A DNA stretch of 64,000 bases, from the IMG/VR virus record IMGVR_UViG_3300016486_001578. One strand, 5' to 3'. Shown piece by piece: positions 1,227-51,228 of this stretch. A model generated the notes under the pieces. That model did no database searches. It was given only the letters and a program-made list of their open reading frames with translations, and was not told the DNA's origin. The DNA is from a virus. Lineage: Duplodnaviria; Caudoviricetes. Within the stretch, counting starts at the first letter, position 1; each line of letters starts with the position of its first letter. The translations under genes and the position numbers were made by a program.

Positions 1227-1243
1227 TACTTTAATTATAAAAT

Positions 1244-1279
1244 AAAAAATACCTTCTCCAAAAGAGAAGGTATTTTTTT
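1244..1279 (+). terminator. Intrinsic terminator after the capsid gene
   Basis: AAAAAATACCTTCTC-CAAAA-GAGAAGGTATTTTTTT hairpin with a T tract. Confidence 0.85.
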
Positions 1280-1328
1280 GCCTATTAATTAAAACATTTT
1301 ATTTATTTTATATATATAAGATATATAT

Positions 1329-1397
1329 GCAGGAGTAGCATAAGTTAATGTGCTAGACTTCCAGTCTAGAGATTCTGTTCAAATCAGACTCCTTGCT
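1329..1397 (+). tRNA. tRNA-Gly(TCC), somewhat degenerate
   Basis: Anticodon arm CTAGA-CTTCCAG-TCTAG and T-loop TTCAAAT. Acceptor stem GCAGGAG/TCCTTGC has one mismatch. Terminator hairpin at 1400-1427. Confidence 0.75.
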
Positions 1398-3247: not shown

Positions 3248-3637
3248 ATGATTAAGAGTTATGAATATTTCCTTGAAGGTAAAAATAAAAAGTTTCCTGA
3301 CACAAAAGTATCTGAGTTTAATGGCTTTGATATATATGTTGGTAGAGATGCAAAATCCAATGATCATTTAACATTCAATATGGCTGGTGATGATGATATA
3401 TGGTTACACACTAAGGGTGTACCAGGTAGCCATGTTGTTATTATGGTCAAAAATGAGTTACCTAGTAAAGAAACAATAAAATATGCCGCTGAATTAGCCA
3501 AAAAGAATAGTAAATCTAAGAATTTAAATTTAGCTGATGTGGTTTATTGCAAAAGAAAGTTCGTTAAAAAAGAGAAAAGTATGAATGATGGTCAAGTAAA
3601 AGTTGATTATAAAAACTCCGAAATAATCAAAGTATAA
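3248..3637 (+). CDS. Stand-alone NFACT-R (DUF814) RNA-binding domain protein
   Basis: IYVGRDAKSND, DIWLHTKGVPGSHVVI and AAELA..S are typical of the RqcH/FbpA NFACT-R domain. The start at 3248 follows a TTAATATATA motif. Confidence 0.85.
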   Translation: MIKSYEYFLEGKNKKFPDTKVSEFNGFDIYVGRDAKSNDHLTFNMAGDDDIWLHTKGVPGSHVVIMVKNELPSKETIKYAAELAKKNSKSKNLNLADVVYCKRKFVKKEKSMNDGQVKVDYKNSEIIKV

Positions 3638-3652
3638 ATAAAAATATAAACT

Positions 3653-5014
3653 ATGGCAGCAGTAGATAGATCCGATGGAATAAAAATAGAATTTTCTGAT
3701 AAATTAATTGATATATTAAAAGAATTGGAAGCTAATAACTATTATATAGCTTTTGAGTTATTATATATGAGTGATAAGGATGCAAAATATTTAAATGGCT
3801 TAAAAATAACAGATATTGATGTTGGTAAAGATTTTACATTTAAAGTGAAAATAGATGGAAAGTCTTATTATATGAAAGTAGGTAGATTTCTTAGATATTT
3901 TTATCAAGGAATATTCAAAAATGATGAAATAGCTAAATTTTCCAAAGCTTATAATAAACTAAAAGATGGTGATAGTATAAAATCTGATGCAAAAAGGATA
4001 AATGTTTCTAAATTTGAATATAAACCAAAGGACCCAAGGGAAACGTTTTTATCATTAACAACAAAAACATACCCATACGGAAATGAAGATGAACTTCTTT
4101 ATTTTTTACCAGACTTAGAAAAAGACAAACATGGTAATTATTATAAGATAATTGGAGAAAATAAAGAACCTAGTGTTATGTTTTCATCACACTTAGATAC
4201 CGCAGATAGAAAACAAGAACCAACAGAGTTATATTCAAAAGAAGAAGATGGTGACGAGATAATATTTACGAATGGTATGACTATATTAGGAGCAGATGAT
4301 AAAGCTGGTGTAACTATTATGTTGTATATGATGGAACATAATGTACCTGGATTATATTATTTCTTTATAGGTGAAGAAAGAGGTGGTATTGGTTCCAATA
4401 AGTTATCTTTTGATTTCTATAACACAGAGTATTTAAAAAATGTAGATATGTGTGTTTCTTTTGATAGAAGAAAAACAGAATCTGTTATAACACAACAAAT
4501 GGGTAGAGTTTGTTGCTCAGACCAATTTGGTGTTGCTTTGTGTAAAGAGTATAATAAGAGTGGTTTAAACTTATCACTAGATCCAGGTGGAATATATACC
4601 GATTCTGCCTCATTTATTGATGAAATACCCGAATGTACTAACGTATCTGTTGGGTATGATAATGAACATACTGGTAGAGAATTACAAAATATGACATTTT
4701 TAATAAAGATGTGTGAGGCTTCTGTTGATGTCGATTGGCAAAATTTACCAATTGCTAGAAAAGTTGGTCTAAATAACGAACTTATAGCCAAACATAAAGC
4801 ACTAATAGATGATATAAAGAGTGGTTCTTTTAACCAAGAAGTTAAAATGGTCGGAATGGATGATGATATATATGTTAGAATAGATATGGATGGCAGCGAG
4901 GTTGATACCGCATTTGATACATTAACAATTATGCAGTTCTTATTAGATAAATATAAAGTAGATGATGCTGATGTTTTAATAGAAGATTCCTACATAAAAA
5001 TACAATTAACATAA
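3653..5014 (+). CDS. M28/M20-type zinc peptidase
   Basis: SSHLDT, GADDKAG, GEERGGIGS, SFDRR, YTDSASF, NEHT. Paralog of 36876-37967. Confidence 0.8.
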   Translation: MAAVDRSDGIKIEFSDKLIDILKELEANNYYIAFELLYMSDKDAKYLNGLKITDIDVGKDFTFKVKIDGKSYYMKVGRFLRYFYQGIFKNDEIAKFSKAYNKLKDGDSIKSDAKRINVSKFEYKPKDPRETFLSLTTKTYPYGNEDELLYFLPDLEKDKHGNYYKIIGENKEPSVMFSSHLDTADRKQEPTELYSKEEDGDEIIFTNGMTILGADDKAGVTIMLYMMEHNVPGLYYFFIGEERGGIGSNKLSFDFYNTEYLKNVDMCVSFDRRKTESVITQQMGRVCCSDQFGVALCKEYNKSGLNLSLDPGGIYTDSASFIDEIPECTNVSVGYDNEHTGRELQNMTFLIKMCEASVDVDWQNLPIARKVGLNNELIAKHKALIDDIKSGSFNQEVKMVGMDDDIYVRIDMDGSEVDTAFDTLTIMQFLLDKYKVDDADVLIEDSYIKIQLT

Positions 5015-42295: not shown

Positions 42296-43046
42296 ATGAA
42301 AAGAATTAGACCAATTAATAAATTTATATTAATATTTATATTAATAACATCACTAATTCTATGTATATCATTTTCGTTTACTAGGTCATATAGAAGTATT
42401 GAGAAAATAAGTAGCGACATATCAATCTATAATGATACTATATTGAAGATTAAAGATGATTTTAATAAATATTTACTATATGATAGTAATATAGAATATG
42501 ATAAGAAGAAACACTTGGAGAATACCAAAAAATAACTAGATATATTAAATTATCAAACTAATATCAGAGAAAGAAGAATTAATAAATACATTTAATATTA
42601 AAAATAATAACATTAAAATAACTAATAAAAGTATTAATTATACTGATACTAAAGGATTCATTTTTAAAAGAAGTATTAATAAGAAAATTTATTACAAAAA
42701 AATAGAAGATGTTGATTTAATAAATTTCAAAAAAATAGAATTATATAATAATAAAGAGATTAAAAACTCCATTGAAGAAAATGATAGAATTAATAGAGAA
42801 ATCTCTTATAAAATAGAGAATATAGTTAAAGAGGTAGAAGAAAACCAAAAGATAAGTATTAAAAATAACCTTTCAGAAAGAAAAAATATATTTTATATAC
42901 TATCTATATTATCATTAACTTTCATAACTTTATCAATATATTTAACAATTGGACTTATTAATGATATATCTCTTATGATAAAGAGAAATGAAGTGAATAA
43001 AGTTACATTATCATTTTTAGTTGAATTTATTAAAAGTAAAAATTAA
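42296..43046 (+). pseudogene. Disrupted two-TM membrane protein (TM, long coiled periplasmic-like region, TM)
   Basis: In-frame TAA at 42533 and a further break near 42600; the downstream frame ends with a second TM segment. Confidence 0.4.
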
Positions 43047-43047
43047 T

Positions 43048-43341
43048 ATGGAATATAAAATATTAAATCAATCACTTTATATTTGTGATAGAATGGGTAA
43101 CCTTGGTAGAAGAATATCAGAGAATGTTGTATATGGTACATTCGATGATAAAACCTCTACATTTTTAGTTACTAAAATGGATGGTAAAGTGGAACTAAGA
43201 GATACTAATGGTAATCTTAGAAGAGTTGTATCAAGTGATACAATAGAAGCTAGATATTCAGGTATTGAAATTATTATTAGAAAGAAAGATGGTAGAACTT
43301 GTATAATAGATCAAATGGGAAATGTTAAGAGGTATATATGA
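43048..43341 (+). CDS. Hypothetical protein with three DxxGN beta repeats
   Basis: DRMGNLGR, DTNGNLRR, DQMGNVKR. Confidence 0.6.
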   Translation: MEYKILNQSLYICDRMGNLGRRISENVVYGTFDDKTSTFLVTKMDGKVELRDTNGNLRRVVSSDTIEARYSGIEIIIRKKDGRTCIIDQMGNVKRYI

Positions 43342-43510
43342 TATTAAAATATAAAAAATTCACAGAATCAGATAAATCAACTATAAAAGAAGACTTAATC
43401 GATAAATTGATATACTATTCTGAATATATGATAGATTATATGAGAGAATATAACAACTCTGGTGTTGGTCGGTATAAAATTATATTTACCATTTAAGAGA
43501 TAAAAATAAG

Positions 43511-44023
43511 ATGAGTATGAGAATTAGAAAGTTTAATGAAAATAATGATATGAATAGATCATTAAAAGATTATATAAGAGGTAAAATAGAATATACTAAG
43601 ATAATTAATCTTATGTATAAAAATATGGATATCTTTGATATATTAGGAGATTATATCTATAATGATATATTTTGTGGTAAGATACCAAAGAGTCTAGACT
43701 ACATAACCAAAAAGGATAAATTAGCAATTTTACTTATAAGTGAATCAGATTTAATTGTAGATAGATTAAAGGAGCTTTATGGTGAGCCAATCTATCATAA
43801 TGAATTTGGTGAAGGATTTGAGGGTAATTATAATCAAGAAACTGATGAGTATATCGAACCCGAAAATAAGAGTGGATTCGCATCATATTTTATAAATATT
43901 GAAGGTGTTGAATTACATGTTGGTTATGATCATAGGGGACTTTCCTTAGAGGTAGAAAAAAATATTGAAATAGAAAAAATATACAAGTCTCTGAAAATAT
44001 ATTTACTATATTTGTATTTATGA
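43511..44023 (+). CDS. Hypothetical protein with capsid-targeting-like N-terminus
   Basis: MRIRKFNEN. Confidence 0.55.
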   Translation: MSMRIRKFNENNDMNRSLKDYIRGKIEYTKIINLMYKNMDIFDILGDYIYNDIFCGKIPKSLDYITKKDKLAILLISESDLIVDRLKELYGEPIYHNEFGEGFEGNYNQETDEYIEPENKSGFASYFINIEGVELHVGYDHRGLSLEVEKNIEIEKIYKSLKIYLLYLYL

Positions 44024-44766
44024 AAATATATATACTCGCAGATAAAAATAATATACCATATACCGTAAATGCTTATTTAGCATATAATGGCTTTGAACAA
44101 TTGGGATATGAAGTTATCTTAATAAAGACAATCGATGATATTAAAGATAATAATCCAGAAAATATTGTATTTGCTGGTATAGGTAATGTTAAAAACTATA
44201 TTAATAATGTTTTAAAATTAGATATTGATATTGAGAATTTTGACTACCCAAGTGAACTAAGTGAATATTTAGGTCGTAATTTACATAAAGATAAGTTTAA
44301 TAAGTTTATTAGTGAATTTACTGGTGATAAACCTTTATTTATAAAACCAGTAAATGAACAAAAGCTATTCACAGGAGTTTTAATCAATGAGTATAAAGAC
44401 ATACCACCATTAAAAGAAGATATTGATATATGGGTATCAGAGCCTATTAAATTTATAACAGAATATAGATGCTTTATCTATCATAATAAAATAATAGGAT
44501 GTAAGAATTATAAAGGAAATCCCTTTAGAAGTATTGATGAAAATGTAGTCTTAGGAGCAGTTAAAGATTTTACCAAATCACCTATTTCATATTCAATCGA
44601 CTTTGGTCTAACTGATGATGGTAGAACTCTATTAGTAGAAGCTAATGACTCACATTCCTTAGGTGCTTATGGCTTGAACCCACACCTATATGCTAGAATA
44701 ATAGCAGCAAGATGGGCAGAGTTAACAAATACAAATGACTACTCCTATTATGAATTTAATATATAA
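44020..44766 (+). CDS. ATP-grasp protein (R2K/DUF4343-like)
   Basis: DYPSEL..YLGR, FIKPV..KLFTG, EYRCFI, IDFG...LVEAND. Confidence 0.8.
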   Translation: MKIYILADKNNIPYTVNAYLAYNGFEQLGYEVILIKTIDDIKDNNPENIVFAGIGNVKNYINNVLKLDIDIENFDYPSELSEYLGRNLHKDKFNKFISEFTGDKPLFIKPVNEQKLFTGVLINEYKDIPPLKEDIDIWVSEPIKFITEYRCFIYHNKIIGCKNYKGNPFRSIDENVVLGAVKDFTKSPISYSIDFGLTDDGRTLLVEANDSHSLGAYGLNPHLYARIIAARWAELTNTNDYSYYEFNI

Positions 44767-44769
44767 ATA

Positions 44770-45015
44770 ATGTTTAAAATTAGAATTATAGCACAAAAAG
44801 TTTTATGCTTACTAGGTATACTAACTTCTATATTATTTATACCATATGAGTATATTATTAATAATATAGAAATTTCACCAGGTGGAACTATCGGGATGTT
44901 AGTTATATCTTTTTGTATTTTTATATTATGTATGGATGGTTTGATTGAGACAAATAATAAAGAAACAAAATATAACATATTCACAATTAATAATGATTGG
45001 AAATATAAAAGATAA
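44770..45015 (+). CDS. Small two-TM membrane protein
   Basis: Two hydrophobic segments. Confidence 0.5.
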   Translation: MFKIRIIAQKVLCLLGILTSILFIPYEYIINNIEISPGGTIGMLVISFCIFILCMDGLIETNNKETKYNIFTINNDWKYKR

Positions 45016-45018
45016 AAT

Positions 45019-45285
45019 ATGATTAAGAAGTTTGAAAATTTTGGAGAATCTAAGCTAAGTAAAGTGTGGTATTTAGAATTATATGATTTACAATATTCTC
45101 TAGTAGAGAATGATCCACTATTTATAGAGATAGAAGAATGGGTAAGTGATAATGATCATAATAATGGTTATGCATACTCTTGGAAAGTAGGAGAAGATGA
45201 TACTGCATATCCACTACTAGATAAGTATTTCATAAATAATGGGCTTATAAAAGATGATATAGTCATAGTGCATTGTCTTTGGTAA
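45019..45285 (+). CDS. Hypothetical protein with capsid-targeting-like N-terminus
   Basis: MIKKFENFGES. Confidence 0.6.
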   Translation: MIKKFENFGESKLSKVWYLELYDLQYSLVENDPLFIEIEEWVSDNDHNNGYAYSWKVGEDDTAYPLLDKYFINNGLIKDDIVIVHCLW

Positions 45286-45510
45286 GATAAAGAATTTAAT
45301 TATTAGTATAAACGAATTTAAAACAAAAACTATGGGATATTTTATTATAACACTAATCTTTTTATTTATATGTGTGTTATTTTACAAACTTACGAATGTG
45401 AATTGGTATCATCAATTTTTAACACAAGATTTTAAAGATAAAGATTGGTTCACGAAACTTGTTAAATGGTTGGTGAATTGATTTTTTATTAAAATAAAAT
45501 AGAAAATAAA

Positions 45511-45542
45511 TTTGCAGGTATAAAAACTTTGTTATATATTTG
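45511..45542 (+). promoter_or_regulatory. Bacteroidota-type promoter upstream of the tRNA operon leader
   Basis: TTTG (45511-14), 20 nt, TATATTTG (45535-42). Confidence 0.7.
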
Positions 45543-45596
45543 TAGTATAATTAAAGAAAAACAAAAAGGAACAATAATAAATTAATATATAAAATT

Positions 45597-45753
45597 ATGA
45601 ACACAACAACTTTAAATACAAACTTATCACTGAGATCTCTTTTATTAAGAGAAGGGTCGGGATTTGTCTTATTTGAACGTTGTGATAGTAAATAATTACT
45701 ATAATAATATATCTAATACAAACCCGATACTCATAAAAGTATCGGGTTTTTTT
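45597..45753 (+). promoter_or_regulatory. Leader-peptide attenuator of the tRNA cluster (leader ORF 45597-45695)
   Basis: Leader MNTTTLNTNLSLRSLLLREGSGFVLFERCDSK. Antiterminator TCGGGATTTGT (45657-67) pairs with ACAAACCCGA (45718-27). Terminator AAACCCGATACT/AGTATCGGGTTT plus T tract ends 2 nt before the first tRNA. Confidence 0.75.
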
Positions 45754-45755
45754 AT

Positions 45756-45839
45756 GCACTTGTGGTGGAATTGGTAGACACCCTGGTCTTAGAAGCCAGT
45801 GCTCGGAAGAGCGTGAGAGTTCGATTCTCTCCAAGTGTA
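45756..45839 (+). tRNA. tRNA-Leu(TAG), long variable arm
   Basis: CTGGT-CTTAGAA-GCCAG; canonical D and T loops. Confidence 0.95.
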
Positions 45840-45846
45840 CTATAAT

Positions 45847-45933
45847 GCGGCTATGATGAAATTGGTAGCACATGCTAGACTTAAAATCTAGTGGATAGTA
45901 ATGTCCGTGCGGGTTCGACTCCCGCTAGCCGTA
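45847..45933 (+). tRNA. tRNA-Leu(TAA), long variable arm
   Basis: CTAGA-CTTAAAA-TCTAG; GTTCGACTC T-arm. Confidence 0.95.
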
Positions 45934-45940
45934 CAAAAAT

Positions 45941-46013
45941 GGCCCTATGGTGTAACTGAATAACACACACGCCTTCTAAGCGTATATTCCAAGTTTGAAT
46001 CTTGGTAGGGTCA
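45941..46013 (+). tRNA. tRNA-Arg(TCT)
   Basis: ACGC-CTTCTAA-GCGT; acceptor GGCCCTA/TAGGGTC. Confidence 0.85.
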
Positions 46014-46026
46014 CAAAAAATTAAAT

Positions 46027-46101
46027 GCTCTGGTAGCCCAATTGGAAGAGGCAATAGTTTTAGAAACTATACAGGTGTGGGTTCAAATCCCACTCGGAGT
46101 A
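46027..46101 (+). tRNA. tRNA with TAG (Leu) anticodon but a short variable loop
   Basis: ATAGT-TTTAGAA-ACTAT; variable region of only about 5-6 nt; discriminator A. Confidence 0.8.
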
Positions 46102-46105
46102 CAAT

Positions 46106-46186
46106 GTCTCAGTAGTCCCAGTTGTCTTCTAAACAACTACGGGTAATTGGATGCTGAAAATATAGGTTCGAATCCTATCTGAGACA
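46106..46186 (+). ncRNA. Non-canonical tRNA-like RNA (TCT anticodon hairpin, no D-arm at the normal position)
   Basis: Perfect acceptor GTCTCAG/CTGAGAC-A and T-arm ATAGG-TTCGAAT-CCTAT. AGTTGT-CTTCTAA-ACAACT lies only 7 nt after the acceptor stem. Confidence 0.65.
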
Positions 46187-46191
46187 CAAAT

Positions 46192-46242
46192 ATCTTGGTG
46201 GTGAAACCGTGTACGCTGCGGGTTCGACTCCCGTCCAAGATA
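46192..46242 (+). ncRNA. Mini tRNA-like RNA (acceptor stem plus T-arm, no anticodon arm)
   Basis: ATCTTGG/CCAAGAT-A; GCGGG-TTCGACT-CCCGT; 51 nt. Confidence 0.6.
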
Positions 46243-46257
46243 CAAAATGAAAGTAAA

Positions 46258-46431
46258 ATGATAATAGAGATAGATAATAAGACATATTTGGTAGAACCTT
46301 GTAAGCATTGTAAAAGAGATGATATCATTTATATAGAGAGTGATTTACCATGGAGTGATAGTAAATTTATATGTGATTTCTGTTGCTCTACCTATTCAAT
46401 ATTTGATACTAATATAGCAAATAAGATATAA
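46258..46431 (+). CDS. Small Zn-ribbon-like protein inside the tRNA cluster
   Basis: MIIEIDNK...CKHC...CDFCC. Confidence 0.5.
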   Translation: MIIEIDNKTYLVEPCKHCKRDDIIYIESDLPWSDSKFICDFCCSTYSIFDTNIANKI

Positions 46432-46450
46432 ATTTGAATAAGAAAAATAA

Positions 46451-46524
46451 GGCTTTGTATCATAATCGCATAATGAAATAGTTTCCTAAACTATCCTATG
46501 TGGGTTGGAATCCCTCCGAAGTCA
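46451..46524 (+). tRNA. tRNA-Arg(CCT), degenerate T-loop
   Basis: ATAGT-TTCCTAA-ACTAT; acceptor GGCTTTG/CGAAGTC; T-loop TTGGAAT. Confidence 0.7.
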
Positions 46525-46542
46525 CAAATAAAAAAATAAAAT

Positions 46543-46647
46543 ATGAAAACTAAAAATACATTACTACTACTACTCAAAGAATGATTCTTCTTTAGTATAG
46601 TAATACCTTATACTCAAGTCTTATCATTAATTTGATAAGACTTTTTT
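46543..46647 (+). promoter_or_regulatory. Leucine leader-peptide attenuator of leuS (leader ORF 46543-46584)
   Basis: ATG AAA ACT AAA AAT ACA TTA CTA CTA CTA CTC AAA GAA TGA = MKTKNTLLLLLKE. Terminator AAGTCTTATCA-TTAATT-TGATAAGACTT-TTTT (46616-47) ends 26 nt before the leuS ATG. Confidence 0.85.
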
Positions 46648-46673
46648 GTTAAAAAAAATTAAAAATATAAATC

Positions 46674-48299
46674 ATGAATATAAAAGAAATAGAAAAAAAG
46701 TGGCAAAATAAATGGATAGAAGATAATTCATTTAAATTTGATGTAAACTCTAATAAAGAGAAGAAGATTATCATACCTATGTTTCCTTACCCCTCTGGTA
46801 ATATACATATGGGTCATATGAGAAATTATACAATATCGGATGTGATTGCTAGATATTGGCGAAATAAAGGATTTAACGTTTGTCATCCAATGGGTTGGGA
46901 CTCATATGGTTCACCAGCAGAAAGTGCTGCTATAAATAATAATGTACATCCAAAAGAATGGACTGATATCAATATTAAGAATATGAAAGAGCAAATGATT
47001 AGAATGGGTATGTCATTTGATTGGAGTAGAGAAATATCAACATGCGAGGTAGACTATTGGAAAAATGAACAGAAGTTCTTTATTGATATGTGGAAAAAAG
47101 GATATATTGATAAGAAGATTGGTTATGTAAACTGGGATCCAATAGATGAGAGTGTGGTTTCAAATGAACAAGTTATAGATGGTAAAGGGTGGAGAACAGG
47201 TGCTATAATAGAACAAAAAGAAATGATACAATATTACTTTAAAACAACTATGTTTAAAGATGATATGATGAATGTATCCTCTTGTGAAGAATGGCCTGAT
47301 AATATTACTAAGCAACAAGTAAACTTCATGAGTAAGGGTATAAGAAATGGTGATGATATAAACCCATTCTCAGATTGGTGTGTATCAAGACAGAAATATT
47401 GGGGAACACCAATACCTATGATCAATTGTGACAAATGTGGAACTATTCCAAATGAGAATATCCCAGTAGTAGCACCAATTGATGTTGACTTTAATGGAAA
47501 GGGTAATCCTATAAGAAATCATGCAACATGGGCGAATATAAAATGCCCAAATTGTGGTGGTGATGCTGAGAAAGAAACAGATACAATGGATACATTTGTT
47601 CAATCATCTTGGTACTTTATAAGATATATCTCAGATTTTTTTAATGGTGAGTTCGATCATGATGTTATTAAAAAAATGTTCCCAATTGATTACTATATTG
47701 GTGGCTCAGAACATGCTAATAGTCATATGATTTATTCTAGATTTTTTTGGAGAGTTTTTAAAGAAATGAATTATATACCTAAAAATACCTCAATAGAACC
47801 ATTTAAAAAAGTAATAACACAAGGTATGGTGAAAAATGGTGGGAAAAAGATGAGTAAATCAGCAGGTAATGGTATATCACCAATTGATGTAGTTGATAAA
47901 TATGGTTGTGATGTTGTAAGAATGTATATGATGTTCAGTGGACCAGTTGAACAAGATATTGATTGGAATGAAGATGGTATAAAAGGTGTGTCTAGATTTA
48001 TAACTAAAATTATAAATGCTATAACTAAAATAAAAGATAAAGATTTCATATATATTAAAAATGTAAAAAATGAACAAATATCTAAAACTAAAATAGAAGA
48101 ATTGAATAAAAGAATTGAAAATGTATATGAAGATAATATGAAATTTAATACAATAATAGCATTTTCAATGGAAACATATAATGCAATATCAAAAACAACT
48201 GATATAAATATATGGAAAGAGGGAATAGATACCATAATGCGTGGTATAGGTCCAATAATTCCACATATTTATAGTGAAAATTATGAAAATTATGAATAG
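46674..48299 (+). CDS. leuS: Minimal leucyl-tRNA synthetase (no CP1 editing domain, no C-terminal domain)
   Basis: MFPYPSGNIHMGH, GWDSYG.PAE, DWCVSRQKYWGTPIP, ETDTMDTFVQSSWY, YIGGSEHA, KMSKS; 541 aa. Confidence 0.92.
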   Translation: MNIKEIEKKWQNKWIEDNSFKFDVNSNKEKKIIIPMFPYPSGNIHMGHMRNYTISDVIARYWRNKGFNVCHPMGWDSYGSPAESAAINNNVHPKEWTDINIKNMKEQMIRMGMSFDWSREISTCEVDYWKNEQKFFIDMWKKGYIDKKIGYVNWDPIDESVVSNEQVIDGKGWRTGAIIEQKEMIQYYFKTTMFKDDMMNVSSCEEWPDNITKQQVNFMSKGIRNGDDINPFSDWCVSRQKYWGTPIPMINCDKCGTIPNENIPVVAPIDVDFNGKGNPIRNHATWANIKCPNCGGDAEKETDTMDTFVQSSWYFIRYISDFFNGEFDHDVIKKMFPIDYYIGGSEHANSHMIYSRFFWRVFKEMNYIPKNTSIEPFKKVITQGMVKNGGKKMSKSAGNGISPIDVVDKYGCDVVRMYMMFSGPVEQDIDWNEDGIKGVSRFITKIINAITKIKDKDFIYIKNVKNEQISKTKIEELNKRIENVYEDNMKFNTIIAFSMETYNAISKTTDINIWKEGIDTIMRGIGPIIPHIYSENYENYE

Positions 48300-48309
48300 A
48301 AAACTAAAA

Positions 48310-49359
48310 ATGAATAAAGTAGATAAAAAATATTTAAAACTTCTTAAAAAAATTTTAAAAAAAGGAATAGTTAAAAAAGATAGAACCAGAACTGGGACAA
48401 TATCCTTATTTGGTCATTCGATGCGTTTTAACATGAGTGATGGCTTTCCACTATTAACGTCTAAAAAAATGTTTACAAAAGCAATAATAATTGAATTAAT
48501 ATGGTTTATAAATGGAGATACTAATATTAAATATTTAGTTGACAATGGATGTAATATCTGGAATGGAGACGCTTATAAAAATTATTGTAATAAGTATTGG
48601 ACATTAGATGAATTATGTAAAATTGAATATGGTAGCTCATATTATGATCATGAGTTAAATGAATATAATTTTGAAGTTTGGACAATTGAAAAATTTATTG
48701 AGAAAATAAAAACAGATGATGTCTTCTGTAAAAAATGGGGTGAGTTGGGACCAGTATATGGGAGACAATGGCGTGATTTTAATGGCGTTGATCAATTTAA
48801 AGATTTGTTAGAAACTCTTAAAAAAAATCCGGACTCTAGAAGAATGATGGTTAGTGCATGGGATCCATCAAAACTTAATGAAATGGTTCTACCACCTTGC
48901 CACTTTAACTTCCAATGTTATACAACAGAAATGACTTACAATGAAAGAATTAAAAGGTGGTTAAAATCTATCAATAAAGATGAATCATATTCAAAAGAAA
49001 TGACAATGGAAAAATTAGATTTACAAGGATTTCCAAAAAGAAAATTGGATATAAAATGGAGTCAACGCAGTTGCGATTTTTTCCTAGGAATTCCGTTCAA
49101 TATAGCATCCTATGGTCTCCTACTACATTTATTAGCAAAAGAAGTTAATATGATTCCTAATGATTTAATATTTTCCGGTGGAGATTGTCACATCTACCTA
49201 AATCATATAGATGTTGTTAAAGAACAATTAAAAAGTGAAACATTTAAATTATGTAATTTGGAGTTATTGAATAACTCAATATTTAATTTAAAATATGAGG
49301 ATTTTAAGATTCTAAATTATAAATCTTCCCCTGTATTAAAAGGAAAATTATCAAATTAA
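48310..49359 (+). CDS. thyA: Thymidylate synthase
   Basis: DRT.TGT, LGPVYG, DSRRM, LPPCH, QRSCDFFLGIPFNIASY, GDCHIYLNH. Confidence 0.95.
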   Translation: MNKVDKKYLKLLKKILKKGIVKKDRTRTGTISLFGHSMRFNMSDGFPLLTSKKMFTKAIIIELIWFINGDTNIKYLVDNGCNIWNGDAYKNYCNKYWTLDELCKIEYGSSYYDHELNEYNFEVWTIEKFIEKIKTDDVFCKKWGELGPVYGRQWRDFNGVDQFKDLLETLKKNPDSRRMMVSAWDPSKLNEMVLPPCHFNFQCYTTEMTYNERIKRWLKSINKDESYSKEMTMEKLDLQGFPKRKLDIKWSQRSCDFFLGIPFNIASYGLLLHLLAKEVNMIPNDLIFSGGDCHIYLNHIDVVKEQLKSETFKLCNLELLNNSIFNLKYEDFKILNYKSSPVLKGKLSN

Positions 49360-50160
49360 AATATAATTAATAAACCTAGGATTATCTGACAAACATCTCC
49401 ATCTAATTGTCACCACAGGTAATCCTATATCTTTTGATGCATCATGATAGGATTCATAAATTATTCCATCAACTGATAATTTAATTCTATTTATGGGCTT
49501 TTTACCAATTCTTTTTTGTCTAATTTTATCCTTGCTTTCCTCACTATGTTTTTTCCCATAAAAGTGATTTTTATCACCTATTCTTTCAGATGCACTTTTT
49601 GATAATTTATCACTTATAATATTTGCTCTTTCTAAACCATATAATTCAATATTAGTCTTTCCCTTATTAATTGGCTCTATTCCAATTCTTCTCAAAGATG
49701 CAATTTCTCTCATCTCATCATTCCACCTTTTACCATAATTTGGATTTGACTCACCAGATTTACCCCATTTTTCTACCCTTTCTTCCTTTGACATATTAGA
49801 TATTTTATTATTTAAAGTCTCTGTAATTCGTTTAATTATATCTTCTCTATTTGGATTATTAGTCAAATTATCACCACCTGATGCGTTTTTACCTATATTG
49901 AAACCATTATTATTAAATGGTTGAAACTCATCAATAAAATATTAATCTCTTATAAGTAGTTGATCTATTTCACATAATTCTAAAATTTCAAACTTAAAAT
50001 TGTTTATACCATATTTATCAAATGCTCTTTGTAAATGTATATTTATGTGTTTATTCCCATTTAGGTCATTTATATGCCTCCTCCATCTTTTTCTAATATT
50101 ATTTGATGAGCCTATGTAAAGTTTATCATTACAAGTTATTTTATATATTCCTATTTCCAT
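49351..50160 (-). CDS. GIY-YIG/NUMOD3 homing endonuclease (frameshift near 49940)
   Basis: GIYKIT..YIGSS..R..H; FYGKKHSEE. The two ORF-track pieces together align with 50407-51228. Confidence 0.85.
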
Positions 50161-50184
50161 AACTTATATATTAATAGTTGGGTC

Positions 50185-50415
50185 TTATTAGCAAGGGAAG
50201 CTAACATGATACCAGATGAATTAATAGGAAATTTAGGAGATTGTCATATATATTTAAATCAAATAGATCCTATTCAAGAACAACTTAATAATAAATCATA
50301 TAAATTACCAGAATTAAAATTATCAAATAATTCAATCTTTGATATAAAAATAGAAGAAATTTCTATTATAGGTTATAAATCATCTAAAAGAGTTAATTAT
50401 AAATTATCAAATTAA
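50185..50415 (+). pseudogene. thyA: Orphan thyA C-terminal fragment
   Basis: LLAREANMIPDELIGNLGDCHIYLNQ...YKS...KLSN parallels the end of 48310-49359. Confidence 0.85.
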
Positions 50416-51228
50416 AATATAATTATCAAATTTTTTATTTTTTGATAAACATCGCCACCTAATTGTAACAACTGGTATTTCTTTATCTTTTGAAGCATCA
50501 CCATAGGAATCATATATTTTTCCATCTATTGAGAGTTTAACTCTATTTGACGGCTTTATACCCATTCTTTTTTTACTAATTTTATTTTTAGTTTCATCAC
50601 TATGTTTTTTACCATAGAATCCATTTTTTTCACCTATTCTTTGTGAAGCTAAAAAAGATAGCTTCTCACTTATTCTTTTTGATATTTCTTCGCCATATAA
50701 TTCAGTGTTTGTTTTTCCAAACCTATTTCTTAGTCCATTTTTCAAATTAGATTTTTGATAATTTGAAAAATCTAATTTCATTTTATCAGACCATCTATTG
50801 CCATAATTTGGATTTAATTTACCTATTTTGCCCCATTTTTCTTTTTTTCCTTTTGTTGTCATATTTGATATGTTATAATTAACAGACTCTTTAATTCTAT
50901 TTATTATATCTATTCTTTTTGGATTATTTGTTAGGTTATCTCCACCAGAAGCACCAGTGCTTATATTTAATACATTTTCATTAAATGGTAAAATACTTTT
51001 CAAATATTTTTGCTCTGTTATTAATAATTCTTTTACTTTACATAATTCTATAACCTCAAATTTAAAATTATCTAATCCATATTTATTAAAAACTCTTTGT
51101 AATTTTATATTTATGTGTTTATTTTTATTTAAATCATCTATATGTCTTTTCCACCTTTTTTCTATATTTTTTGATGATCCTATGTAGAATTTTTCACCAC
51201 AACTAATTTTATATATTCCTGAACTCAT
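50407..51228 (-). CDS. GIY-YIG/NUMOD3 homing endonuclease
   Basis: GIYKIS..FYIGSS..RWKRH; FYGKKHSDETK. Confidence 0.9.
   Translation of the reverse strand: MSSGIYKISCGEKFYIGSSKNIEKRWKRHIDDLNKNKHINIKLQRVFNKYGLDNFKFEVIELCKVKELLITEQKYLKSILPFNENVLNISTGASGGDNLTNNPKRIDIINRIKESVNYNISNMTTKGKKEKWGKIGKLNPNYGNRWSDKMKLDFSNYQKSNLKNGLRNRFGKTNTELYGEEISKRISEKLSFLASQRIGEKNGFYGKKHSDETKNKISKKRMGIKPSNRVKLSIDGKIYDSYGDASKDKEIPVVTIRWRCLSKNKKFDNYILI

What the first reader, a model, noticed from the sequence alone, without database searches (positions are those of the whole stretch)
45511..48299. Phage translation-sensing backup operon: two leader-peptide attenuators gate Leu/Arg tRNAs and a minimal LeuRS
Seen: a host-type promoter, a Leu/Arg-codon leader ORF with terminator and antiterminator, seven tRNA or tRNA-like genes whose anticodons (where present) are only Leu (TAG, TAA, TAG) and Arg (TCT, TCT, CCT), a second leader with five consecutive Leu codons plus a terminator, and then leuS. 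The sensed codons (TTA, CTA/CTG, AGA) are largely the ones the downstream tRNAs decode, so the loop is closed. Established: ribosome-mediated attenuation controls bacterial leu, trp, his and pheST operons, and host defences such as PrrC, PARIS and some retrons and VapC toxins destroy specific tRNAs, which phage tRNAs can offset. Inference: the phage monitors charged tRNA-Leu/Arg and expresses replacement tRNAs and a synthetase only when they run short, through starvation or tRNA-targeting immunity. I do not know of attenuation-controlled tRNA operons in phages.
Basis: partly seen in the sequence, partly recalled or inferred. Interest (0 to 1): 0.93.

Follow-up and report, generated by a model that had tools for sequence, protein, structure and literature searches.

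The report
Leader-peptide attenuators gating phage tRNAs and LeuRS
A giant uncultured phage places a tiny translated "test" gene and a switchable transcription stop in front of its Leu/Arg tRNA genes, and a second such unit in front of a stripped-down leucyl-tRNA synthetase, so it probably makes them only when ribosomes read those codons slowly; I found no published account of this control for tRNA genes.

Summary
These are a Bacteroidota-type promoter, a 32-codon Leu/Arg-rich leader ORF, a terminator ending 2-7 nt before the first tRNA, and six tRNAs with only Leu or Arg anticodons plus one anticodon-less tRNA-like element. A 13-codon leader with five consecutive Leu codons, a second terminator and a 541-aa leuS follow.

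The attenuator reading holds up in relatives. A Leu-run leader plus terminator precedes the short leuS, or the tRNA-Leu array ahead of it, in 13 of 16 related huge-phage loci, against 0 of 62 bacterial-type leuS loci. The three mutually exclusive helices (1:2, 2:3, 3:4) are each supported in register, with compensatory changes. In 16 leader/tRNA-array pairs, leader amino acids track the downstream tRNA identities (0 of 50,000 permutations reach the observed match). Of the matching codons, 87% are readable by a downstream anticodon.

The LeuRS lacks the CP1 editing domain and the C-terminal domain.

No expression data exist. The trigger (starvation or tRNA-targeting defence) is inference. The antiterminator of leader 2 is weak.

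Earlier notes from this scan describe the same device on other DNA and elsewhere in this genome. I found no paper describing it.

The parts
45511..45542 (+). Promoter-like site of Bacteroidota sigma-A type: -33 TTTG (45511-45514) and -7 TATATTTG (45535-45542). The predicted start is near 45547.
   Evidence: Read. Consensus is from PMC9723704. An exact TAnnTTTG lies within 100 nt upstream of 15 of 26 leaders, against 1.2 expected.
45597..45695 (+). Leader ORF 1: 32 codons with 7 Leu (TTA x5, CTG, CTT) and 3 Arg (AGA x2, CGT). The control run LSLRSLLLR spans 45624-45650.
   Evidence: Enrichment for Leu+Arg is 10 of 31 residues against a background of 0.111, binomial p = 1.4e-3.
45652..45672 (+). 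Region 2 of attenuator 1 (contains UCGGGAUUUGU). It pairs either with the control-codon region (1:2) or with 45710-45730, the 5' arm of the terminator (antiterminator 2:3).
   Evidence: RNAduplex dG -10.9, z -2.6, 2% of shuffles as good. With a ribosome stalled at codons 45612-45642, 8-12 of the 13 nt of the 5' arm are sequestered.
45720..45753 (+). Intrinsic terminator 1: 12-13 bp stem with 5 G-C pairs, then a T-run. It ends 2 nt before tRNA-Leu, so there is no room for a separate promoter.
45756..45840 (+). tRNA-Leu (UAG), long variable arm.
   Evidence: ARAGORN; Rfam tRNA 54.2 bits.
45847..45934 (+). tRNA-Leu (UAA), long variable arm.
   Evidence: Rfam 55.7 bits.
45941..46014 (+). tRNA-Arg (UCU).
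   Evidence: Rfam 54.2 bits.
46027..46102 (+). 76-nt tRNA with UAG (Leu) anticodon but a short variable arm, and A as discriminator base.
   Evidence: Rfam 52.9 bits with alignment.
46105..46186 (+). Aberrant tRNA-like element: acceptor stem, long anticodon-type stem with loop CUUCUAA (UCU), and a T-arm, with no clear D-arm.
   Evidence: ARAGORN calls it Arg-UCU at 46092-46185, overlapping the previous tRNA. Rfam gives only tRNA-Sec at 24.8 bits against a cut-off of 47. Fold z -2.1.
46191..46241 (+). Anticodon-less tRNA-like mini-element with an acceptor stem and T-arm.
   Evidence: Read; fold dG -18.9, z -2.3.
46258..46431 (+). 57-aa ORF with two CxxC pairs (zinc-ribbon-like) inside the tRNA operon; no Pfam family.
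46451..46525 (+). tRNA-Arg (CCU). It is preceded by a TAAATTTG box at 46430-46437, which could be an internal promoter.
   Evidence: Rfam 46.5 bits; box.
46543..46584 (+). Leader ORF 2: 13 codons, five consecutive Leu codons at 46561-46575, stop TGA at 46582.
   Evidence: the only LLLLL among 741 small ORFs.
46580..46599 (+). Region 2 of attenuator 2. AAUGAU (overlapping the stop codon) pairs with AUCAUU at 46623-46628, and CUU pairs with AAG at 46616-46618, around an inner hairpin. Alternatively 46594-46605 pairs with the Leu codons (1:2).
   Evidence: Truncated and ribosome-masked folds. The same AAUGAU/AUCAUU pair occurs in relative L116. As a plain duplex it is weak: dG -3.2, z -0.1.
46616..46649 (+). 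Intrinsic terminator 2: 11-12 bp stem with 3 G-C pairs, then a T-run, 25 nt before leuS.
46674..48299 (+). leuS: 541-aa class Ia LeuRS with HMGH and KMSKS motifs. It lacks the CP1 editing domain and the C-terminal domain.
   Evidence: Pfam tRNA-synt_1 at 1e-50, no PF13603. PDB alignment skips residues ~229-429 and ends at ~788 of an 877-aa LeuRS. Motifs are invariant in 35 relatives.

Best explanation
The stretch is one operon of an uncultured huge phage (own contig 548,945 bp, 27.7% G+C). Its nearest relatives are the 634-735 kb 'Mahaphage' genomes predicted to infect Bacteroidetes. Two classical ribosome-mediated attenuators control it.

Attenuator 1: host RNA polymerase starts at the TTTG/TAnnTTTG promoter and a ribosome translates leader 1.
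- If Leu (TTA, CTN) and Arg (AGA) codons are read quickly, region 1 re-pairs with region 2 behind the ribosome. The terminator at 45720-45753 then forms and the tRNA array is not made.
- If the ribosome stalls on those codons, region 2 (45652-45672) pairs with the terminator's 5' arm instead. Polymerase then reads into the Leu-UAG, Leu-UAA, Arg-UCU and Arg-CCU tRNA genes, which read the phage's dominant Leu and Arg codons.

Attenuator 2: five Leu codons, with region 2 overlapping the stop codon, applies the same test before the editing-less LeuRS.

The output (tRNA, synthetase) relieves the stall, so each unit is a negative-feedback supply loop.

Shown: the sequence anatomy, conservation, covariation of helices, and leader-to-tRNA matching.
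Inferred: translation dependence, the direction of the response in vivo, and the natural trigger.
For: Conservation around leuS:
- The short LeuRS defines about 45 metagenomic clusters on contigs up to 549 kb.
- In 16 distinct related loci, a Leu-run leader plus terminator lies directly before leuS in 10: window, L086, L092, L095, L096, L097, L100, L101, L102, L116.
- It lies before leuS with one ORF between in L111, and before the tRNA-Leu array that precedes leuS in L001 and L005.
- None of 62 bacterial-type leuS loci has such a unit.

Alternative helices, on the alignment of nine leuS leaders:
- 1:2 is 77% paired with 4 compensatory pairs.
- 2:3 is 80.6% paired with 4 compensatory pairs; 0 of 500 shuffles reach it.
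- 3:4 is 77.5% paired with 7 compensatory pairs; 1 of 500 shuffles reaches its covariation score and 0 of 500 its percentage paired.
- Slid controls give 24-60%.
- The terminator 5' arm has a better upstream partner than shuffles in most of 24 leaders, mean z -2.6.

Leader-to-tRNA matching:
- In 15 leader/array pairs, 167 of 424 leader residues carry an identity of a downstream tRNA. Permuted pairings give 62.7 +/- 12.9, and 0 of 200,000 reach the observed value.
- With ORF choice left to the same rule in the data and in the permutations (16 pairs), the values are 192 against 99.2 +/- 11.9, 0 of 50,000.
- 157 of 181 matching codons are readable by a downstream anticodon.
- Arg codon choice follows the anticodon: AGA with UCU here, CGC/CGA with ACG in L109.
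- Examples: YYEEYE before Glu/Tyr tRNAs (L092), 7 Gln of 15 residues before three tRNA-Gln (L111), SSSRSSS before Arg/Ser (L109).
- A His-rich leader precedes a HisRS-like gene in L097.

Window-specific folds: a stalled ribosome leaves an antiterminator covering 8-12 of 13 nt (leader 1) or 7-8 of 12 nt (leader 2) of the terminator arm. A ribosome at the stop codon of leader 2 leaves 0 nt covered.

Codon usage: TTA 57% and CTA 17% of Leu codons, AGA 73% and AGG 18% of Arg codons. These are the codons the array tRNAs read.
Against:
- The full-length minimum-energy fold always contains the terminator, so the switch rests on the usual kinetic assumption.
- The antiterminator of leader 2 is A+U-rich and, as a simple duplex, no better than shuffles (dG -3.2, z -0.1). 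In the truncated RNA it forms even without a ribosome.
- For leader 1, the modelled fold with a ribosome at the stop codon still pairs the 5' arm. The off state therefore depends on 1:2 re-forming behind the ribosome or on steric exclusion. It does not rest on masking of region 2 as in trp.
- Leader 1 does not sample AGG although an Arg-CCU tRNA is in the operon. Its CGT codon has no cognate tRNA in the array.
- Three related leuS loci (L003, L098, L099), several tRNA arrays (L003, L104) and the window's tRNA-Gly at 1329 have no such leader.
- Related phages share ancestry, so the 16 pairs are not independent. About 11 distinct amino-acid sets are represented.
Confidence: 0.82

Rival explanations
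1. The attenuators are real, but their natural role is ordinary supply-and-demand tuning. An A+T-rich phage uses TTA, CTA and AGA heavily, and the host decodes them slowly, so stalling occurs in every infection until phage tRNAs accumulate. On this view there is no link to tRNA-cleaving defence systems or to starvation.
For: The array tRNAs read the phage's most used Leu and Arg codons. Leaders exist for nearly all amino-acid sets in relatives, not only for known nuclease targets. Nothing in the window links the operon to a defence or counter-defence gene.
Against: This differs from the best explanation only in the trigger, and no data discriminate between them. The relatives' leaders use rare Leu codons (all six Leu codons in L001 and L005). 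That fits sensing of each isoacceptor, not only bulk demand.
Confidence: 0.5
2. The small ORFs are chance frames. The hairpins are plain terminators or insulators of upstream transcription units, and the tRNAs and leuS are made by constitutive leaky read-through or from unrecognised promoters.
For: The genome is 27.7% G+C, so TTA-rich frames and A+U hairpins arise easily. 32 of 741 small ORFs contain LLL. Some arrays lack leaders.
Against: - Only one small ORF in the window has five consecutive Leu, and it sits before leuS.
- Leader composition tracks tRNA identity (0 of 50,000 permutations).
- The helices show compensatory changes.
- There are only 2-7 nt between terminator 1 and the first tRNA.
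- Promoter boxes lie upstream of the leaders, not after the terminators.
Confidence: 0.04
3. Read-through is set by a trans-acting factor, not by the ribosome. The factor could be a phage antiterminator protein, or uncharged tRNA binding the leader RNA in a T-box-like way.
For: Huge phages encode many unknown proteins. Terminators just ahead of tRNA genes would also suit factor-dependent timing.
Against: - No T-box or other riboswitch family matches the region, even at E up to 10.
- The conserved feature across otherwise dissimilar leaders is an ORF whose codons match the cargo, with start and stop codons kept in place.
- Region 2 sits at or just before the leader stop codon in most cases, as expected for ribosome control.
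Confidence: 0.05
4. The logic is inverted: efficient translation of the leader promotes read-through, so tRNAs are made only when translation is healthy.
For: Not excluded by sequence alone. In the truncated fold of leader 2, the antiterminator forms without any ribosome.
Against: The stop codons lie 25 and 32 nt before the terminator stems, so a terminating ribosome cannot melt them. A ribosome at the stop of leader 2 masks region 2 and frees the terminator arm. The control codons lie in region 1, as in classical attenuators.
Confidence: 0.05

Closest known systems
Classical leader-peptide attenuators of aminoacyl-tRNA synthetase genes: E. coli pheST (pheM leader), and the predicted leuS and trpS attenuators of Streptomyces (PMC1262725)
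   Same: A short ORF with a run of cognate codons, antiterminator and terminator hairpins, then the synthetase gene. Window leader 2 with leuS fits this description point for point.
   Different: Here it is in a phage, with Bacteroidota-type promoters and no Shine-Dalgarno sequence, and it controls a truncated LeuRS. I found no sequence relationship to the bacterial leaders, and 0 of 62 bacterial-type leuS loci examined had such a unit.
Multivalent attenuators of amino-acid biosynthesis operons (ilvGMEDA leader with Ile/Leu/Val codons, thr leader with Thr/Ile codons; from established knowledge). Leader-peptide attenuation has also been inferred for flavobacterial amino-acid operons (PMC9723704).
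   Same: One leader samples several amino acids at once, as leader 1 does for Leu and Arg, and as the relatives' leaders do for up to seven identities.
   Different: The controlled genes are tRNA genes, not enzymes. The sensed molecule is therefore itself the product, and codon choice follows the anticodons in the cargo.
T-box riboswitches of Firmicutes aaRS genes
   Same: They couple aaRS expression to the charging state of a specific tRNA by terminator/antiterminator choice.
   Different: A T-box binds tRNA directly and needs no translation. No T-box match is present, whereas a conserved ORF is.
CP1-less LeuRS of Mycoplasma mobile (PDB 3ziu, 637 aa; organism and editing defect recalled from memory)
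   Same: It is the only solved LeuRS that aligns with the phage enzyme in one uninterrupted stretch (residues 2-537 with 10-552). Both lack the CP1 editing domain.
   Different: The phage enzyme is about 95 residues shorter still and also lacks the C-terminal domain. Whether it mischarges is unknown.
Phage tRNA arrays as codon-usage compensation or as replacement for tRNAs cut by host anticodon nucleases (general literature, from memory)
   Same: The phage carries tRNAs for its own preferred codons.
   Different: Those accounts treat the tRNA genes as simply expressed. Here expression appears conditional on slow decoding.

Membership tests
Ribosome-mediated (leader-peptide) transcription attenuator | Short ORF in the 5' leader with clustered codons cognate to what the operon supplies | tested here: met
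   Leader 1 has 10 Leu/Arg among 31 residues, with the core at 45624-45650. Leader 2 has five consecutive Leu codons. The feature is conserved in relatives.
Ribosome-mediated (leader-peptide) transcription attenuator | Intrinsic terminator between the leader ORF and the controlled genes | tested here: met
   Two terminator-like sites at 45720-45749 and 46616-46643, each followed by a T-run. The helix is supported by 7 compensatory pairs in the leuS family.
Ribosome-mediated (leader-peptide) transcription attenuator | Mutually exclusive 1:2, 2:3 (antiterminator) and 3:4 pairings, with control codons in or next to region 1 | tested here: met
   Leader 1: duplex z -2.6, and ribosome-masked folds. 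leuS family: helices in register with compensatory changes. Window leader 2 on its own is inconclusive (duplex z -0.1), but it shares the AAUGAU/AUCAUU pair with L116.
Ribosome-mediated (leader-peptide) transcription attenuator | Read-through depends on leader translation and rises when the cognate charged tRNA is scarce | not testable with these tools
   Needs reporters, Term-seq or a coupled in vitro system.
Ribosome-mediated (leader-peptide) transcription attenuator | Controlled genes are amino-acid biosynthesis, transport or aaRS genes (all described cases I know of) | tested here: not met
   leuS fits, but attenuator 1 controls tRNA genes only up to 46525. This is the departure that makes it a new variant.
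T-box riboswitch | Specifier loop and conserved T-box motif detectable by the Rfam model | tested here: not met
   No T-box hit in 44500-49000 at E up to 10.
Bacterial-type leucyl-tRNA synthetase (class Ia) | Rossmann catalytic core with HIGH and KMSKS motifs | tested here: met
   PF00133 at 1e-50. HMGH at 45-48 and KMSKS at 392-396 are invariant in 35 relatives. Best PDB matches are LeuRS, E 9e-134.
Bacterial-type leucyl-tRNA synthetase (class Ia) | CP1 editing domain (PF13603) inserted in the catalytic core | tested here: not met
   No PF13603. The alignment jumps from residue 228 to residue 430 of the 877-aa enzyme.
Bacterial-type leucyl-tRNA synthetase (class Ia) | C-terminal tRNA-binding domain | tested here: not met
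   The alignment ends at residue ~788 of 877, and the phage protein ends there. Anticodon_1 is only sub-threshold, 16.6 bits against 25.1.
Bacteroidota sigma-A promoter | -7 box TAnnTTTG with -33 TTTG about 20 nt upstream | tested here: met
   45535-45542 and 45511-45514. 15 of 26 leaders have the box within 100 nt, against 1.2 expected. The transcription start itself is not testable here.

The most novel reading that the evidence does not exclude
The two attenuators in series form a diagnostic cascade. Attenuator 1 answers slow Leu/Arg decoding with more tRNA. Attenuator 2, read on the same transcript after the tRNAs, adds the phage's own editing-less LeuRS only if Leu codons are still slow, which would mean the fault is in charging, not in tRNA amount. 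Matched leaders sit on the other tRNA blocks of this and related genomes. Together they would give the phage a genome-wide, per-amino-acid decoding-rate sensor network. That network would let it ride out host tRNA cleavage by anticodon nucleases, or host shut-off, as an inducible counter-defence.
Probability: 0.25. Interest if true: 0.92.

Novelty: new variant of a known kind. Interest (0 to 1): 0.82.

Why it matters
Transcription attenuation by leader peptides is a textbook mechanism. As far as I could find, it has been described only for amino-acid biosynthesis and a few synthetase genes of bacteria.

Here the same device gates tRNA genes, with the leader spelled in the codons that the gated tRNAs read. 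This implies three things:
- tRNA supply can be regulated by its own decoding performance.
- Huge phages run their imported translation parts on demand, not constitutively.
- Leader codons can predict the functional identity of odd phage tRNAs and tRNA-like genes.

It also gives a compact, portable sensor of codon-specific translation speed for Bacteroidota, where few regulatory parts are known. Finally, it makes a current question directly testable: whether phage tRNAs serve codon matching or defence evasion.

Tried and rejected
- The search for related loci with the single LeuRS protein found no relatives.
- The metagenome scan with the alignment returned almost only ordinary bacterial leuS. 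I used these as a negative control instead.
- My first column indices for the 2:3 and 3:4 helices were off by one. The slid controls exposed this, and the corrected runs are.
- The full-length minimum-energy folds are uninformative because the terminator always wins, so I used truncated and ribosome-masked folds.
- The closest LeuRS relative (78% identity) had no retrievable DNA.
- Rfam gave only sub-threshold chance hits on the leaders (Trp_leader at 19.3 bits against a gathering score of 41; STnc240 and others). I give these no weight.
- I looked for further leader/terminator units in the whole window and found none. The tRNA-Gly at 1329 has an upstream terminator but no Gly-rich leader.
- The window's whole genome is not held, so I could not check the other leaders of this genome that earlier notes report.

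Full report
**Observation**

ARAGORN finds six tRNAs between 45756 and 46525, with anticodons UAG, UAA, UCU, UAG, UCU and CCU, and nothing else nearby. Rfam confirms five of them at 46-56 bits. The fifth ARAGORN call gets only a sub-threshold tRNA-Sec hit at 46105-46186. A seventh, anticodon-less element with an acceptor stem and T-arm lies at about 46191-46241.

The consensus scan finds exactly two terminator-like sites in 43000-51000, at 45720-45749 and 46616-46643, both on the + strand.
- The first ends 2-7 nt before tRNA-Leu.
- The second ends 25 nt before leuS.

Upstream of each lies a small ORF:
- 45597-45695 has 32 codons, with 7 Leu and 3 Arg clustered as LSLRSLLLR.
- 46543-46584 has 13 codons, with TTA CTA CTA CTA CTC in a row.

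Of 741 small ORFs in the six frames of the window, only this second one has five consecutive Leu.

A -33 TTTG at 45511 and a -7 TATATTTG at 45535 fit the flavobacterial sigma-A consensus.

**What the DNA is**

- The window has 27.7% G+C.
- The LeuRS is recorded on a contig of 548,945 bp.
- The only similar phage records are the 634-735 kb genomes LR745206, LR756501/3 and LR756502.
- Al-Shayeb et al. place those genomes in the Mahaphage clade with predicted Bacteroidetes hosts (PMC7162821).

**Conservation around leuS**

The 541-aa LeuRS has about 45 close metagenomic clusters of 510-547 aa, at 57-78% identity. I fetched 16 distinct related loci.

| Arrangement | Loci |
|---|---|
| Small ORF with a run of 3-5 Leu plus terminator directly before leuS | window, L086, L092, L095, L096, L097, L100, L101, L102, L116 (10) |
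| Same unit before leuS with one ORF between | L111, a LeuRS only 36% identical |
| Leu-rich leader plus terminator before an all-Leu tRNA array that runs into leuS | L001, L005 |
| No leader | L003, L098, L099 |

In L001 and L005, the seven Leu codons of the leader include all six Leu codons. Among 62 bacterial-type leuS loci from the metagenome scan, none has an LLL-containing small ORF followed by a terminator.

**Structure**

I aligned nine leuS leaders (A2). The three mutually exclusive helices of a classical attenuator are each supported in register.

| Helix | Cells paired | Compensatory pairs | Shuffles reaching observed |
|---|---|---|---|
| 1:2 | 77.4% | 4 | 5 of 500 |
| 2:3 | 80.6% | 4 | 0 of 500 |
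| 3:4 | 77.5% | 7 | 0 of 500 (1 of 500 for covariation score) |

Partners slid by 1-3 columns give 24-60% paired cells.

Over 24 leaders, the 5' arm of the terminator has a better partner in the upstream leader than in shuffled sequence (mean z -2.6). The partner usually starts within 41 nt before to 5 nt after the leader stop codon.

Window leader 1:
- The partner is 45652-45662, with dG -10.9 and z -2.6.
- The RNA was folded up to the terminator loop with a 30-nt ribosome footprint. A stall at any control codon from 45612 to 45642 gives a long 2:3 helix that covers 8-12 of the 13 arm nucleotides.
- Free RNA instead pairs the control-codon region with region 2.

Window leader 2:
- A stall at the first three Leu codons leaves 7-8 of 12 arm nucleotides sequestered. 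This is AAUGAU with AUCAUU, plus CUU with AAG, around an inner hairpin.
- A ribosome at the stop codon leaves none sequestered.
- The helix is weak taken alone.
- The same AAUGAU/AUCAUU pair recurs in L116, whose terminator stem is otherwise different.

**Leader codons match the cargo**

The decisive evidence came from arrays of other identities.

In related contigs:
- YYEEYE precedes Glu, Tyr, Glu, Glu, Tyr (L092).
- A Tyr/Glu core precedes Glu, Tyr, Glu (L100).
- A Lys/His/Trp core precedes His, His, Trp, Trp, Lys, Lys (L099).

I then located all tRNAs of LR756501 and LR745206, fetched the clusters and scanned them with one rule: a small ORF ending within 110 nt of a terminator upstream of an array. 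Matches include:
- 7 Gln of 15 residues before three tRNA-Gln.
- SSSRSSS before Arg-ACG and Ser-UGA.
- A Pro/Gln/Asp core before Pro and four Asp.
- An Ile/Gly/Ala core before Ile-UAU, Gly, CAU and Gly.
- A Thr/Pro/Ala/Val/Arg/Gly leader before Arg, Thr, Val, Ala, Gly and Pro tRNAs.
- A Met/Thr/Asn/Leu/Val/Ile/Arg leader before a 19-tRNA block of exactly those identities.

Statistics:
- Over 15 pairs, 167 of 424 leader residues share an identity with a downstream tRNA. Permuted pairings give 62.7 +/- 12.9, with a maximum of 131 in 200,000 permutations.
- Every identity in every array is represented in its leader, except Met in one.
- To remove my own choice of ORF, I let both the data and the permutations take the best of all candidate ORFs. 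This gives 192 against 99.2 +/- 11.9, with 0 of 50,000 reaching the observed value. The leader I had named is the best candidate in 14 of 16 arrays.
- At codon level, 157 of 181 matching codons can be read by a downstream anticodon under strict wobble.
- Arg codons follow the anticodons: AGA with UCU in this window, and CGC/CGA with ACG in L109.
- A HisRS-like gene in L097 has a His-rich leader and terminator.
- An exact TAnnTTTG lies within 100 nt upstream of 15 of 26 leaders, against 1.2 expected.

**The synthetase**

- Pfam gives only the class I catalytic family.
- Against solved LeuRS structures, the alignment covers 6-222 with 11-228, 232-406 with 430-606, and 382-533 with 625-788 of an 877-aa enzyme. 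About 200 residues of CP1 and about 90 C-terminal residues are therefore missing.
- The one uninterrupted match is the 637-aa chain 3ziu.
- HMGH and KMSKS are invariant in 35 relatives, whose mean column identity is 76%. That argues for a working enzyme.

**Mechanism**

The phage's Leu codons are 57% TTA and 17% CTA. Its Arg codons are 73% AGA and 18% AGG. These are the codons read by the array tRNAs.

I therefore read the operon as a negative-feedback supply loop. Slow decoding of these codons stalls the ribosome in the leader, the antiterminator forms, and tRNAs are made, followed after a second Leu-only test by LeuRS. Decoding then speeds up and termination resumes.

leuS may also be fed from a possible internal promoter box at 46430-46437.

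All of this is inferred from sequence. Whether the usual trigger is codon-usage mismatch, starvation or tRNA cleavage by host defence is open.

**Known comparators and novelty**

- Classical attenuators are documented for pheST and predicted for Streptomyces leuS and trpS (PMC1262725).
- Leader-peptide attenuation is inferred for flavobacterial amino-acid operons (PMC9723704).
- Seven full-text searches found no paper describing leader-peptide control of tRNA genes, in phages or elsewhere.
- The huge-phage paper contains neither 'attenuat' nor 'leader'.

**Earlier notes of this scan**

The scan has reported the same device on other DNA and in other windows of this genome. I treat these reports as leads only. 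What I could test here agrees with them: the relatives, the matching, and the gating of a synthetase.

**Caveats**

- The phages are related, so the pairs are not independent events.
- Several arrays and three leuS loci lack leaders.
- The antiterminator of leader 2 is weak.
- For leader 1, the off state relies on 1:2 re-forming, not on masking of region 2.
- No RNA data were obtainable.

Noticed in passing
window 46027-46102; L001 3398-3550; L003 4176-4487; L005 3152-3224, 3320-3394, 4403-4476: These phages carry 73-76-nt tRNAs with Leu anticodons but a short variable arm (class-I shape), next to normal long-arm tRNA-Leu. They may be the matched substrates of the LeuRS that lacks the C-terminal domain, or they may be charged by another enzyme.
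   Followed up: partly
window 46105-46186 and 46191-46241; L001 3181-3301: Aberrant tRNA-like elements sit inside the arrays. One has an acceptor stem, a long anticodon-type stem with a UCU loop and a T-arm but no clear D-arm; its T-arm is identical to that of a 120-nt element in L001. The other has only an acceptor stem and a T-arm. Their function is unknown.
   Followed up: partly
L001 2862-3003; L003 3941-4080: A conserved element of about 140 nt lies between the attenuator (or upstream gene) and the first tRNA-Leu. It is closed by a 9-bp long-range stem and contains a tRNA-type T-arm. No Rfam family was sought for it.
   Followed up: no
window 48274-51228: Thymidylate synthase (48274-49359, Pfam 1e-90) is followed by three minus-strand ORFs that look like GIY-YIG homing endonucleases by eye. 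A 69-aa ORF at 50206-50415 repeats the C-terminal end of ThyA. This looks like a homing-endonuclease-associated duplication.
   Followed up: no
L001 3605-4375; L005 about 3565-4300; L099 minus strand about 8465-7660: Homing-endonuclease-like ORFs (GIY-YIG or HNH by eye) are inserted inside the attenuator-controlled tRNA/leuS operons of relatives. They split arrays that share a single leader.
   Followed up: no
L097 5705-5840: A 16-codon leader with four His codons, plus a terminator, precedes a HisRS-like gene. Synthetase gating by matched leaders is therefore not limited to LeuRS.
   Followed up: partly
L108 1086-1239 (LR756501.1 about 690585-690737): The 735-kb phage carries two adjacent tRNAs with anticodon CUA (amber-suppressor type, called 'Pyl' by ARAGORN).
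   Followed up: no
all leaders (e.g. window 45597-45611, L092 9160-9177, L109 2131-2148): Most leaders start alike, with Met then Asn/Lys, Thr, Ile/Thr, Thr/Asn, Asn, written in A-rich codons. This may favour initiation without a Shine-Dalgarno sequence in Bacteroidota, or it may reflect common descent.
   Followed up: no
window 1243-1396: tRNA-Gly (UCC) at 1329-1396 lies 54 nt after a two-way terminator at 1243-1279, but no Gly-rich leader precedes it. Not every tRNA of this phage is gated in this way.
   Followed up: partly
window 44020-44766; L104 minus strand about 1400-1545: An ATP-grasp protein of the R2K clade (Pfam 2e-37) lies just upstream of the operon. In LR756501, a gene ending like the C-terminal domain of ribosomal protein bL12 (by eye) lies next to a tRNA array.
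   Followed up: no
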